DNA of 64,000 bases from Corallococcus exiguus (GTDB lineage Bacteria > Myxococcota > Myxococcia > Myxococcales > Myxococcaceae), in NCBI RefSeq assembly GCF_009909105.1, contig NZ_JAAAPK010000002.1, positions 285,827 to 349,826 on the forward strand. The letters are read 5' to 3'. Below the pieces are notes generated by a model that searched no databases, was not told where the DNA came from, and saw only the letters and a list, made by a program, of their open reading frames with translations. The stretch's first letter is position 1. Each line of letters opens with the position of its first letter. Position numbers and translations under genes: made by a program. Positions 11,256 through 12,648 of this stretch are shown here, piece by piece.

Positions 11256-11464
11256 TGCGCAAGCTGCTCGAAGCCAGCATGGGGCAGCGCTGCTACCTCT
11301 TCACCACGCTGGGCCAGGTGTACGTGGGCCTGGTGGTGGAGCTCATCGACGACGTCGTCCACCTCACCGGGCCGGATGGCGCCACACCCGTCTACATCAA
11401 CCTGTCGGACGTCTCCGGCGTGCGCCAGTACGACGAGGACGACGACCTGGGGAGCGCGCGATGA
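11252..11464 (+). CDS. Small beta-rich hypothetical protein (70 aa) immediately upstream of the spike gene.
   Basis: GTG/ATG start overlapping the upstream stop (GTGATG). Its stop overlaps the spike ATG (ATGA). Coding-type codon bias. Confidence 0.5.
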   Translation: MMRKLLEASMGQRCYLFTTLGQVYVGLVVELIDDVVHLTGPDGATPVYINLSDVSGVRQYDEDDDLGSAR

Positions 11465-12648
11465 TCGAACAACTGCTGCAGCAGCTCATCGAACGCACGG
11501 AGAGCCGCTACTTCGGCAAGTACCGGGGCTATGTGACGAACGTCTCGGATCCGCTCAACCTGGGGCGCATCCAGTGCGTGGTGCCGCGCCTGATGGGGGA
11601 CGTGGCCACGGGCTGGGCCATGCCGTGCACGCCATACGCGGGACCGGATCAGGGCCTCTTCGTGGTGCCGGACGTGGGCGCGGGCGTCTGGGTGGAGTTC
11701 GAGGGCGGAGACCTATCCCAACCCATCTGGAGCGGCATGTGGTGGGGGCAGCCCGCGCTCGCGGACCTGGGCCAGCCGGACTCCACCGCGCGAGTGGCCC
11801 CGGACGTCAGTGAGATTCCCAAGCACGATTACCCGCCCCAGTCCGCGGTGCCGGGCGTGCGGATGCTCAAGTCCGCCACGGGCCACTACATCGTCCTGGA
11901 CGACCGGCCGGAGACCGCGCGCGTGGAGATCCACGACCGGCAGGGCAACCGCGTCATCCTGTCCGCGGAAGGCCTGGACCGGCTCATCAGCAACGAGCGC
12001 ACGGTGAACGAGGGCAACCGCTCCGCGGAGGTGGACGGCGACGACCACCTGGAGGTGGCGGGCAAGCAGGACGAGACGGTGGACGGCAGCCACACCCGCG
12101 ACGTGGGCGGGGACGTGTCGCTGCACGTGACGGGGTCGCTGACGGAAAAGGTGGACGTGGCGGGCTACTCGCGCACGGTGGGTGGCAGCGGCCTGAAGGA
12201 GATCGTCGGCGGCCCGCGTGAGGACCGCATCCAGGGCAGCCACACGCGCATCGTCTCCGGCGCGTCGCAGGAAACAGCGGTGGGAGGCTACGGCGTCACG
12301 TCCGGCGGCAACGTGAACCTCGCGGCGGGCAAGGCGGTGACGGTGGCCGCGGCGATGCCGGACATGCCGGGCCCGTCGCTCAACGCCGTCTCCATCGACG
12401 CGTTGGCAGGCAACGTGTCCATCAACACGATGCTGGGCGTGTGCCAGATGGGAGGCCTCACCGCCATCTCGCCCATGGTGTTGGGGGACGGGCTGGCCAT
12501 CCACTTCACGATGCTGGCGCAGATCCTCAAGGCGGTGAACCCGATGACGGTGGCTGCGTACGGGCCGCTCCTGGATGTCTGGGCGGCGATGACGCCAATG
12601 CTGGACTGGTCCTACTTCGGCTTCGTCAAGCGCATGCCGGTGGGGTGA
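11461..12648 (+). CDS. Phage baseplate spike protein (gpV / gp5 / VgrG-C-like): N-terminal OB-fold spike domain followed by a triple-beta-helix-like repeat region.
   Basis: 'FGKYRGYVTNVSDPLNLGRIQCVVPRLMGD...GWAMPCTPYAGPDQGLFVVPDVGAGVWVEFEGGDLSQPIWSGMWW' matches the Phage_base_V/Gp5_OB signature (the 'G.WVEFEGGD...P.W.G' core). It is followed by repeated 'V.G.....V.G' beta-helix units. Confidence 0.85.
   Translation: MIEQLLQQLIERTESRYFGKYRGYVTNVSDPLNLGRIQCVVPRLMGDVATGWAMPCTPYAGPDQGLFVVPDVGAGVWVEFEGGDLSQPIWSGMWWGQPALADLGQPDSTARVAPDVSEIPKHDYPPQSAVPGVRMLKSATGHYIVLDDRPETARVEIHDRQGNRVILSAEGLDRLISNERTVNEGNRSAEVDGDDHLEVAGKQDETVDGSHTRDVGGDVSLHVTGSLTEKVDVAGYSRTVGGSGLKEIVGGPREDRIQGSHTRIVSGASQETAVGGYGVTSGGNVNLAAGKAVTVAAAMPDMPGPSLNAVSIDALAGNVSINTMLGVCQMGGLTAISPMVLGDGLAIHFTMLAQILKAVNPMTVAAYGPLLDVWAAMTPMLDWSYFGFVKRMPVG

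What the first reader, a model, noticed from the sequence alone, without database searches (positions are those of the whole stretch)
11461..12648. Clear gpV/gp5-OB spike domain followed by beta-helix repeats and an unknown ~120-aa C-terminal domain
The 'G.WVEFEGGD...P.W.G.WW' core is diagnostic of baseplate spike proteins. The C-terminal 'NTMLGVCQMGGLTAISPMVLGDGLAIHFTMLAQILKAVNP...' region after the beta-helix does not resemble known spike tips (PAAR, lysozyme, apex). It could be a novel tip or effector-docking domain.
Basis: partly seen in the sequence, partly recalled or inferred. Interest (0 to 1): 0.6.

Follow-up and report, generated by a model that had tools for sequence, protein, structure and literature searches.

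The report
Injection-system spike with histidine-free tip
This gene encodes the central piercing spike of a phage-tail-like injection machine in a Corallococcus-type myxobacterium. Its unexplained tail end is most likely a hydrophobic version of the iron-holding tip of related phage spikes that has lost its histidines, which makes it an interesting variant rather than a new kind of part.

Summary
ORF 11461-12648 (+, 395 aa) has a strong Phage_base_V OB-fold (PF04717, E=6e-24), then gp5-like beta-helix, then a C-terminal block with no Pfam, PDB-sequence or cultured-phage match. That block is about 80-95 aa, not 120.

The gene belongs to a contractile injection system (CIS) conserved in synteny across Myxococcota and Actinomycetota. 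The order is sheath, two tubes, tube initiator, LysM protein, gpD-like hub, gp25, baseplate J, P2-I/Kelch protein, giant DUF6519 fibre, then the spike, encoded apart from its hub.

The C-terminal block is as conserved as the OB-fold, hydrophobic and Met-rich, and predicted as two helices. It is not orphan. Uncultured phage spikes (IMG/VR) align collinearly to about aa 382 and carry 'GG..A.EP.VLG – helix – HTHP', the HxH iron-cage Apex signature. This family has x-V-N-P there, or V-Y/F-P. None of 120 members has HxH, and no PAAR gene was found in the locus.

A small helical protein and a 318-536-aa protein follow the spike here, in a low-GC relative and in phages. In the latter two they lie between hub and gp25, which points to baseplate parts rather than effectors.

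Verdict: a real spike and a new variant of a known kind, with a built-in histidine-free tip. Interest is moderate.

The parts
11461..12648 (+). Central spike gene (395 aa), gpV-type: OB-fold, beta-helix and C-terminal tip domain. It is encoded separately from the hub.
   Evidence: There are 350 homologues at 56-95% identity over full length.
11521..11745 (+). [quoted passage not shown]
   Evidence: PF04717 at 84.6 bits, E=6e-24, full model 1-75. Mean column entropy is 0.66.
11851..12360 (+). Beta-structure and gp5-like intertwined beta-helix (aa 131-300). This is the most variable part of the protein.
   Evidence: phrog_430 at 4e-13. Profile against T4 gp5 at 6.6e-8 and against VgrG/Alg8 at 3e-12 and 7e-11. 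AF2 pLDDT is 80-90 for aa 140-270. Entropy is 1.60.
12409..12645 (+). Conserved hydrophobic C-terminal tip domain (aa 317-395): 'GN.S.NT..G..Q.GG..AISP.VLGDGL' followed by two predicted helices (338-359 and 361-386).
   Evidence: Entropy is 0.66-0.81, the same as the OB-fold. Six of 79 residues are charged and 8 are Met. Helices are predicted at pLDDT about 60-74. No Pfam, PDB or cultured-phage hits.
12529..12543 (+). 'K-A-V-N-P' (aa 357-361), the position that aligns with 'x-H-T-H-P' (the HxH histidine cage) of related phage spikes.
   Evidence: N360 is N in 46/49 and Y or F in 3/49; P361 is P in 48/49. HxH occurs in 0 of 120 family members.
11252..11464 (+). 70-aa ORF whose stop overlaps the spike start codon. 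It is syntenic in Micromonospora and Kofleriaceae loci. Function is unknown; it could be a spike-associated small protein.
   Evidence: Only weak hits to DUF6897 and the MM0924 family.
10914..11255 (+). 113-aa ORF between the fibre gene and the spike. It is syntenic in relatives and has no family match.
12653..12847 (+). 64-aa helical protein immediately downstream of the spike. It has an N-terminal 'WKP.(D/E).S.L' motif and is conserved in position in Actinomycetota, a low-GC relative and phage contigs.
12816..14426 (+). 536-aa conserved partner protein of unknown fold, mainly helical with a long hydrophobic N-terminal helix.
   Evidence: BLASTP against the 318-aa protein of L012 gives E=6e-21. 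Collinear look-alikes of 327-330 aa, sharing the 'WK.F.PS.L', 'DP' and 'D.NRP' motifs by eye, sit in viral L018 and L019 between spike and gp25 (not scored). 82 homologues, no Pfam. AF2 pLDDT is 62 with no PDB fold hit.
14423..16585 (+). 720-aa protein, syntenic in relatives (722-815 aa), with no family or PDB match.
3275..10882 (+). 2535-aa DUF6519 plus right-handed beta-helix protein, the candidate tail fibre of the system.
   Evidence: PF20129 at 5e-8 and PF13229 at 9e-12. DUF6519 is the eBAP5 fibre anchor in PMC12923769.
1..3278 (+). 3' part of the Tail_P2_I/Kelch baseplate wedge protein. It is cut by the window start; the listed ORF is 60..3278.
   Evidence: Kelch hit. The full-length homologue in L007 has PF09684 Tail_P2_I at 3.5e-6.

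Best explanation
The ORF encodes the trimeric central spike of a phage-tail-like contractile injection system in a Corallococcus-type myxobacterium. The N-terminal OB-fold docks it on a separately encoded gpD-like hub, and the middle forms the intertwined beta-helix. The last ~80 residues are a built-in spike tip. This tip derives from the 'helix + HxH' apex of related phage spikes, but the iron-binding histidine cage has been replaced by x-V-(N/Y/F)-P, and the domain has become a conserved, hydrophobic, Met-rich helical cap.

On sheath contraction the tube, hub and spike are driven forward, and this cap is the first part to meet the target envelope. It closes and keeps in register the end of the beta-helix, doing the job that a separate PAAR protein or an Fe-loaded apex does in other systems. 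It may also contact the conserved small helical protein and the 536-aa protein encoded just downstream, which look like baseplate or tip-complex components inherited from the same phage lineage.

Shown here: spike identity, CIS context, conservation, absence of HxH and PAAR, and homology to HxH-bearing phage C-termini. Inferred: trimeric helical cap, position at the tip, contact with the partners, and the piercing role.
For: **Spike identity**
- PF04717 at E=6e-24.
- The family profile hits VgrG, Alg8 and T4 gp5.
- Foldseek hits VgrG, AlgoCIS, tCIS, CIS-Sc, AFP, the R2 pyocin spike, P2 gpV and Mu gp45.

**CIS context in close and distant relatives**
- Sheath, two gp19 tubes, CIS_tube, LysM/tail-X, Phage_GPD hub, gp25, Baseplate_J, TIGR02243 and Tail_P2_I are present.
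- The DUF6519 fibre is present and is a published eCIS fibre marker (PMC12923769).

**The C-terminal domain is under strong constraint**
- Its entropy is 0.66-0.81, against 1.60 for the beta-helix.
- It is 67-84% identical between Myxococcota and Actinomycetota.

**Link to the apex**
- BLASTP against the viral L019 spike gives E=3e-35, collinear to aa 382, and aligns KAVNP with LHTHP.
- The multiple alignment agrees.
- hhalign of the C-termini alone gives Prob 80%, P=1.5e-5 over 51 columns.
- Among the viral spike ORFs examined, those carrying HxH show the pattern '(L)GG..A.EP.V.G – helix – HTH(P) – GP.GP'.
- HxH near the C-terminus is the published criterion for an Apex domain, and HxH-less spikes are expected to carry PAAR (bioRxiv 10.1101/2023.02.25.529910).

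**No histidine cage and no PAAR**
- None of 120 family members has HxH. Position 360 is N, Y or F. This parallels the engineered gpV H197F/H199F hydrophobic-core mutant, which infects like wild type.
- No PAAR hit in any called or scanned ORF of the locus.

**Shape**
- AF2 predicts two helices, 338-359 and 361-386, with N360-P361 at the turn.
Against: - Homology of the C-terminal block alone is modest. hhalign probability is 80%, and a family HMM finds the viral C-termini only at E of about 6 for Z=1e6.
- The AF2 model is a monomer with pLDDT 30-74 in this region, so the trimeric cap is not demonstrated.
- A PAAR protein could be encoded elsewhere in the genome.
- The gpV Apex proper is only 21 residues and has no helix. 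The phage 'helix + HxH' domain has itself no solved structure.
- The spike gene sits next to unknown genes rather than next to the hub. This is also what an effector module would look like.
Confidence: 0.6

Rival explanations
1. Effector or adaptor docking platform. The hydrophobic, Met-rich C-terminal domain binds a cargo or chaperone encoded downstream (the 64-aa, 536-aa and 720-aa proteins), as VgrG C-terminal extensions do in type VI secretion.
For: The spike is followed by conserved genes with no known function. The domain is hydrophobic and Met-rich. The 536-aa protein has a long hydrophobic helix that would need shielding. The spike module lies away from the hub gene, at the distal end of the operon.
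Against: The same small protein and partner protein follow spikes in a low-GC relative and in phage contigs. There they sit inside the structural block between hub and gp25. The phage spikes in L018 and L019 carry a normal HxH apex. The domain and the partner are conserved in every locus seen, whereas effectors usually vary. The partner has no toxin, enzyme or PADLOC-type signature in Pfam, PHROGs or NCBIfam.
Confidence: 0.2
2. Membrane anchor. The two C-terminal helices are transmembrane segments that tether the spike or baseplate to the producer's membrane, making the system cell-bound like T6SS or the thylakoid-anchored CIS.
For: This is the most hydrophobic part of the protein. No AAA+ ATPase or DUF4255 cap typical of released eCIS was seen in the fetched loci.
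Against: The maximum 19-residue Kyte-Doolittle mean is 1.37, below the usual 1.6 threshold, and it falls in the Gly-rich segment 324-342 rather than in the helices. The helices contain conserved K357, N360, D372 and several prolines. Known anchored systems use baseplate extensions or separate membrane proteins, not the spike tip (PMC8894135). The locus has a giant DUF6519 fibre, a marker of target-binding eCIS.
Confidence: 0.07
3. Folding or registration module only. The C-terminal helices act as a trimerisation nucleus that sets the register of the beta-helix and have no role at the target.
For: HxH cages in spikes and fibres are thought to keep the chains in register. The C-terminal block is nearly invariant, which would fit a folding nucleus.
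Against: In P2 gpV and Mu gp45 the beta-helix folds without the apex. Conservation equal to the OB-fold across phyla, including surface-type residues (K357, K390, R391), suggests more than a folding aid. This rival overlaps with the main explanation rather than excluding it.
Confidence: 0.1

Closest known systems
Phage P2 gpV and R2 pyocin spike PA0616 (spike with fused Apex tip)
   Same: Stand-alone spike that starts with the OB-fold and has no gp27/gpD part. The hub is encoded by a separate gene. A beta-helix is followed by a built-in tip, and no PAAR is needed. Foldseek matches 4s37 and 3qr8.
   Different: About 395 aa against about 170-211 aa. The tip is about 80 aa with two predicted helices instead of a 21-residue apex. 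The HxH Fe cage is absent in all 120 members.
Uncultured phage spikes in IMG/VR (L018, L019, L021, L028, L031)
   Same: Collinear over aa 8-382 at 27-28% identity. Same 'GG..A.(E/S)P.VLG + helix' C-terminal layout. In L018 and L019, where the downstream ORFs were listed, the spike is followed by a small helical protein and a look-alike of the partner protein.
   Different: The phages keep HTHP, and their spike lies between hub and gp25. Here the site is x-V-N-P, the tail is more hydrophobic, and the spike module has moved behind the fibre gene.
Afp8, Pvc8, Alg8 and VgrG plus a PAAR cap (eCIS and T6SS)
   Same: Same OB-fold and beta-helix core. The profile hits 7aef_q, 9rce_F, 7b5h_AJ, 6j0m and 9gtr_q. 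Same role in a contractile injection system.
   Different: Those proteins fuse the gp27-like hub to the spike and end bluntly, capped by a separate PAAR-like protein (PMC8894135). Here hub and spike are separate genes and no PAAR gene is found.
Engineered P2 gpV-FF mutant (H197F/H199F)
   Same: The histidine cage is replaced by a hydrophobic core, and the phage still infects like wild type. Natural members of this family have N, Y or F at the aligned position.
   Different: That is a laboratory mutant with a partly disordered apex. Here the histidine-less state is fixed and strongly conserved, within a larger helical domain.
T4 gp5 with gp5.4
   Same: The beta-helix repeats match.
   Different: There is no lysozyme domain and no separate PAAR tip gene.

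Membership tests
gpV/gp5/VgrG central spike (Phage_base_V) | OB-fold domain PF04717 above the gathering score | tested here: met
   84.6 bits against 23.8, E=6e-24, aa 21-95, full model.
gpV/gp5/VgrG central spike (Phage_base_V) | Intertwined beta-helix following the OB-fold | tested here: met
   Pfam hits fall just below the cut-offs (PF22178 28.8 against 30.9). However, phrog_430 gives 4e-13, the family profile against T4 gp5 gives 6.6e-8 over aa 130-291, and Foldseek probability is 1.00 to solved spikes.
gpV/gp5/VgrG central spike (Phage_base_V) | Encoded within a contractile-tail baseplate gene cluster | tested here: met
   Sheath, tubes, CIS_tube, hub, gp25, Baseplate_J and Tail_P2_I lie upstream in Corallococcus loci L007, L009 and L010. 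Synteny from the Tail_P2_I gene to the spike module is the same in Micromonospora and Kofleriaceae.
gpV/gp5/VgrG central spike (Phage_base_V) | Homotrimer on the tail axis | not testable with these tools
   Only monomer prediction was available.
Apex domain (Fe-loaded histidine cage tip of gpV/gp138-type spikes) | [quoted passage not shown] | tested here: not met
   None of 120 family members has HxH in the last 60 residues. The aligned site reads x-V-(N/Y/F)-P. The criterion comes from bioRxiv 10.1101/2023.02.25.529910.
Apex domain (Fe-loaded histidine cage tip of gpV/gp138-type spikes) | Sequence homology to C-termini that carry HxH | tested here: inconclusive
   Full-length BLASTP is collinear to aa 382 (E=3e-35). 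hhalign of the C-termini gives Prob 80%, P=1.5e-5. A family HMM alone is not significant on the viral C-termini.
Apex domain (Fe-loaded histidine cage tip of gpV/gp138-type spikes) | Bound Fe ion on the three-fold axis | not testable with these tools
   This needs protein chemistry or a structure.
PAAR-capped spike | A PAAR (PF05488) or DUF4280 protein fused to the spike or encoded in the locus | tested here: not met
   No such hit in the spike, in the window ORFs, or in the called genes of L001-L003, L009 and L010. The rest of the genome was not seen.
VgrG/Afp8 (fused hub-spike) | N-terminal gp27/Phage_GPD hub domain in the same polypeptide | tested here: not met
   The protein starts 20 residues before the OB-fold. 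The VgrG models match only their OB part and score far below cut-off. A separate 395-aa Phage_GPD-like gene lies upstream in relatives.
T4 gp5-type tail lysozyme | Lysozyme domain between the OB-fold and the beta-helix | tested here: not met
   No lysozyme family hit. The aa 99-130 linker is short and variable.
Afp/PVC-type extracellular CIS | Core set including the AAA+ ATPase (Afp15) and the DUF4255 cap (Afp16) | tested here: inconclusive
   The structural core and the DUF6519 fibre are present. No ATPase or DUF4255 hit appears in the about 35 kb covered by L009 plus the window. Several ORFs remain unassigned.

The most novel reading that the evidence does not exclude
The histidine-free C-terminal domain is a distinct class of spike tip. 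It would be a trimeric, hydrophobic, Met-rich helical cap that replaces both the metal-loaded apex and PAAR, and that inserts into or destabilises the target membrane, or recruits the conserved downstream proteins as a tip complex. Its core 25-residue helix-NP-turn-helix unit also exists as three tandem copies in small stand-alone proteins. Those proteins could be single-chain, PAAR-like mimics of this tip.
Probability: 0.2. Interest if true: 0.6.

Novelty: new variant of a known kind. Interest (0 to 1): 0.4.

Why it matters
Current thinking is that every contractile-tail spike ends either in an Fe-loaded HxH apex or in a separate PAAR cap. This widespread family has at least 350 members across two phyla, highly conserved, and appears to have neither. 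It would be a natural test of whether the metal cage matters, and it complements the P2 gpV mutant work. Because eCIS are being engineered as protein-delivery devices, a self-capped spike with a hydrophobic tip and conserved tip-associated proteins could be a new handle for cargo loading or target range. The gain is incremental: the protein is clearly a spike, and its system belongs to an already catalogued eCIS group.

Tried and rejected
- **Exact-sequence look-up of the spike:** not on record.
- **phmmer of aa 302-395 against 1.84 billion representatives:** only 25 hits. These were the family itself, a few low-GC relatives, and small triple-repeat proteins. There was no other domain architecture.
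- **Context of the triple-repeat proteins (P0244, P0252, P0258):** short contigs with a transposase or LigB and nothing CIS-related, so uninformative.
- **tblastn of the C-terminus (window and low-GC versions) and of the full spike against 50,697 GenBank phages:** no C-terminal match. The full spike reaches at most aa 308.
- **PDB sequence search with phage HxH C-termini:** nothing, so the 'helix + HxH' domain has no solved relative detectable by sequence.
- **Pfam on the viral spikes:** no Apex model hit.
- **Partner protein:** the AF2 model is poor (pLDDT 62). Foldseek against PDB gives nothing, and against BFVD only one borderline uncharacterised phage protein.
- **Spike-cage idea from AlgoCIS:** rejected for the partner protein, because that cage is an Alg11 (baseplate J) extension and not a separate protein.
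- **Transmembrane anchor:** rejected on hydropathy.
- **Intramolecular chaperone (Peptidase_S74-type):** considered because S384 and K390 are invariant. There is no family hit, and the site is 11 residues from the end, so it was dropped.
- **Trimer prediction:** not possible with the tools.
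Full report
**1. The observation**

The window is about 70% G+C. ORF 11461..12648 (+) is 395 aa with an ATG start. It has the codon-position G+C pattern of a real gene, with GC3 of 0.92-0.95. Its start overlaps the stop of a 70-aa upstream ORF.

Pfam Phage_base_V (PF04717) matches aa 21-95 end to end at 84.6 bits, E=6e-24. The Gp5_trimer_C and Gp5_C hits at aa 169-242 fall just under their cut-offs. NCBIfam VgrG models match only their OB part.

The beta-helix is confirmed by three independent results:
- PHROG 430, 'baseplate hub subunit and tail lysozyme', at 4e-13 over aa 131-298.
- A 49-sequence family profile that hits VgrG, AlgoCIS Alg8, the Anabaena tCIS spike, T4 gp5 and Pvc8.
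- Foldseek of the AF2 model, which hits VgrG, Alg8, the Streptomyces CIS spike, Afp8, the R2 pyocin spike, P2 gpV and Mu gp45.

No sequence match (Pfam, NCBIfam, PDB) extends past about aa 300. The unexplained part is therefore 75-95 residues rather than about 120.

**2. Genomic context**

The closest relatives are Corallococcus proteins at 95% identity, and the flanking gene matches Corallococcus contigs at 81-88%.

Inside the window the spike is preceded by these genes:
- the 3' part of a Tail_P2_I/Kelch protein (to 3278)
- a 2535-aa DUF6519 plus beta-helix protein (3275-10882)
- two small ORFs (10914-11255 and 11252-11464)

It is followed by a 64-aa ORF, a 536-aa ORF and a 720-aa ORF, none with a family match.

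Corallococcus relatives show what lies upstream of the window. The order is: a 652-aa protein, sheath, two gp19-type tubes, a 291-aa protein, a 72-aa protein, CIS_tube, a 92-aa LysM/tail-X protein, a 395-aa Phage_GPD-like hub, gp25, a 1256-aa Baseplate_J, an 842-aa TIGR02243 baseplate protein, and then the P2_I/Kelch gene.

From the P2_I/Kelch gene onward the order, down to the small ORFs, recurs in Micromonospora pattaloongensis and in a Kofleriaceae MAG. DUF6519 has been described as a baseplate-anchor domain (eBAP5) of eCIS tail fibres and is used as an eCIS marker (PMC12923769).

The gene is therefore the central spike of a contractile injection system. As in P2, Mu and R-pyocins, hub and spike are separate polypeptides. 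Unusually, the spike gene is not next to the hub but behind the fibre gene. No PAAR, AAA+ ATPase or DUF4255 hit was found in any called or scanned ORF.

**3. The C-terminal domain itself**

Across 49 diverse homologues, aa 317-395 are as conserved as the OB-fold. Mean column entropy is 0.66-0.81, against 0.66 for the OB-fold and 1.60 for the beta-helix. Identity between the myxobacterial protein and actinobacterial homologues is 67-84% in this block and 45-50% in the beta-helix.

The block is the most hydrophobic part of the protein. Six of 79 residues are charged, against 19% overall, and there are 8 Met. It does not reach transmembrane hydropathy: the maximum 19-residue Kyte-Doolittle mean is 1.37.

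The AF2 monomer predicts two helices, 338-359 and 361-386, joined at N360-P361. Confidence is only moderate (pLDDT 60-74) and is low for the preceding Gly-rich segment. Invariant or nearly invariant residues include G317, N318, G331, G332, S337, P338, G342, D343, G344, H348, K357, N360, P361, Y367, G368, P369, D372, W374, S384, K390, R391 and G395.

**4. Relatives of the domain**

A phmmer search of aa 302-395 against 1.84 billion representative proteins gave only 25 hits. They fall into three groups:
- the family itself
- low-GC relatives with the same OB, beta-helix and C-terminal architecture (P0261, 362 aa)
- small proteins with three tandem copies of the 'ILK.INP.T..AYGP.LDAW' unit

P0261 lies in a tail module with the order YqbQ-like hub, spike, 52-aa ORF, 318-aa ORF, gp25.

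A scan of IMG/VR with the family alignment found 100 viral spikes. Several of them are collinear to query residue 377-382 at 27-28% identity (L018, L019, L021, L028, L031). BLASTP against the L019 spike gives E=3e-35. It aligns '...GGLTAISPMVLGDGL...ILKAVNPMTVAAYGP' with '...GGDTATEPMVLGNLF...LLLHTHPTGTGPSGP'.

Among the viral spike ORFs listed, those that carry HxH near the C-terminus show the pattern '(L)GG..A.EP.V.G, 13-17-residue helix-like stretch, HTH(P), GP.GP, 15-35 more residues'. A minority, including L029, L030, L039, L043 and L092, have lost the histidines.

According to the Leiman-group study of P2 gpV, three HxH motifs form the Fe-binding histidine cage. HxH near the C-terminus identifies an Apex domain, and spikes without it are expected to carry a PAAR protein (bioRxiv 10.1101/2023.02.25.529910).

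In the multiple alignment the phage H-T-H-P aligns with x-V-N-P of the window family. Profile-profile comparison of the C-termini alone gives 80% probability, P=1.5e-5, over 51 columns. A family HMM alone does not reach significance on the viral C-termini. I treat the homology as likely but not proven.

None of 120 family members has HxH in the last 60 residues. Position 360 is N in most and Y or F in some. This recalls the engineered gpV H197F/H199F mutant, in which a hydrophobic core replaces the cage without loss of infectivity.

**5. The downstream partners**

The window's 536-aa protein is homologous to the 318-aa protein of the low-GC locus (BLASTP E=6e-21). The 327-330-aa proteins of the viral contigs L018 and L019 look related by shared motifs but were not scored. 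The viral gene order is: tape measure, CIS_tube-like protein, LysM protein, hub, spike, (extra ORF), small helical ORF, partner, gp25, baseplate J.

The small protein and the partner both begin with a 'W(K/Q).(F/L/V).(P/L)S.L' motif. At least 27 longest-contig lengths are shared between the spike and partner hit lists, which suggests that the two genes co-occur.

The partner has no Pfam, NCBIfam or PDB match. Its AF2 model is poor (pLDDT 62) and finds no fold match. Because this trio sits inside the structural block of the L018 and L019 phages, whose spikes keep the HxH apex, I read the partners as baseplate or tip-complex components rather than cargo.

**6. Mechanism**

Shown here:
- a gpV-type spike in a CIS locus
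- a strongly conserved hydrophobic C-terminal block
- alignment of that block with HxH-bearing phage tips
- absence of HxH and of any PAAR gene in the locus

Inferred:
- This cap is the leading edge when the sheath contracts.

The existence of single-chain proteins with exactly three copies of the central unit is consistent with a three-fold arrangement, but it is only suggestive. Docking of the downstream proteins on this cap is possible and untested.

**7. Comparison and novelty**

Functionally the protein works like P2 gpV or the R2 pyocin spike, where spike and tip are fused. As a family member it passes the tests for a Phage_base_V spike. It fails the defining test for an Apex domain (HxH) and those for VgrG (no gp27 part), gp5 (no lysozyme) and PAAR-capped spikes.

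It is a new variant of a known kind: a large, self-capped, histidine-free spike tip in an already catalogued but structurally uncharacterised eCIS lineage. It is an apparent exception to the 'HxH or PAAR' rule. Interest is moderate (0.4).

The finding would rise in interest if a trimer structure showed a membrane-active helical tip or a defined tip complex. It would fall if a PAAR protein encoded elsewhere caps it.

Noticed in passing
P0244, P0245, P0249, P0252, P0253, P0255, P0257, P0258 (sequences seen for P0244, P0245, P0252 and P0258); motif in window 12508-12585: Small proteins (117-276 aa, one with an OmpA-like domain) carry three tandem copies of 'LVqILKtINPvTvaAYGPlLDAWl'. This is the helix-NP-turn-helix core of the spike C-terminus (about 60% identical, E down to 3e-16). 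Three copies in one chain against one copy per chain of a trimer suggests a single-chain mimic of the tip. Their contigs show no CIS genes.
   Followed up: partly
window 12653-12847 and 12816-14426; L012 2782-3917; L019 11712-12873; L018 11188-12461: A small helical protein and a 318-536-aa protein follow the spike in myxobacterial, actinobacterial, low-GC and phage loci. Both begin with a 'WK.F.PS.L'-like motif, as if the small one were a copy of the partner's N-terminus. Neither has a known fold or family.
   Followed up: partly
window 21786-29798 (-), with 18949-20463, 20463-21233 and 21249-21782 (-): A 2670-aa protein with annexin repeats (PF00191, 5e-21) and a weak DUF6782 putative metallopeptidase hit lies next to an FGE-sulfatase/HEAT protein, convergent with the CIS operon. 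The same neighbours (FGE-sulfatase/HEAT, pentapeptide protein, giant annexin protein) flank the CIS in a Kofleriaceae MAG (L002, L003). It may be a candidate cargo or accessory module.
   Followed up: no
window 11461-12648 compared with L009 11018-12205 and L019 8500-11194: In the phage contigs L018 and L019 the spike gene directly follows the hub gene. In the Myxococcota and Actinomycetota CIS the hub stays upstream next to gp25, and the spike with its partners has moved behind the fibre gene.
   Followed up: partly
one search hit list (P0085 Cryptosporangium, P0102 Micromonospora) against the window: The spike is 57-60% identical over its full length between Myxococcota and Actinomycetota, and gene order is conserved from the Tail_P2_I gene onward. 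This suggests horizontal transfer of the cluster or very strong constraint.
   Followed up: no
window 11252-11464 (+): A 70-aa ORF whose stop overlaps the spike start codon (ATGA) is conserved in position. It has a 'FTT(L/F)G.VY.G.VV...DVSGVR' core and only weak hits to DUF6897 and the MM0924 family. It could be a small spike- or hub-associated protein such as a plug.
   Followed up: partly
L009 3513-19065 plus window 1-18521: No AAA+ ATPase (Afp15-like), DUF4255 cap or PAAR was detected in the about 35-kb cluster. The baseplate proteins are unusually large (Baseplate_J 1256 aa, TIGR02243 842 aa, P2_I/Kelch 1213 aa, fibre 2535 aa).
   Followed up: partly
window 16582-17793 (+): The ORF after the 720-aa gene is Pro/Arg-rich with lower third-position G+C (about 0.78). 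The 390-393-aa proteins at the same position in L001 and L002, like this ORF, have no family match. Whether they are homologous, and whether the gene call is right, was not checked.
   Followed up: no
L029, L030, L039, L043, L092: Some IMG/VR phage spikes of the same lineage have also lost HxH and carry Ala/Val-rich hydrophobic C-termini. Histidine-free tips are therefore not unique to the bacterial CIS.
   Followed up: no
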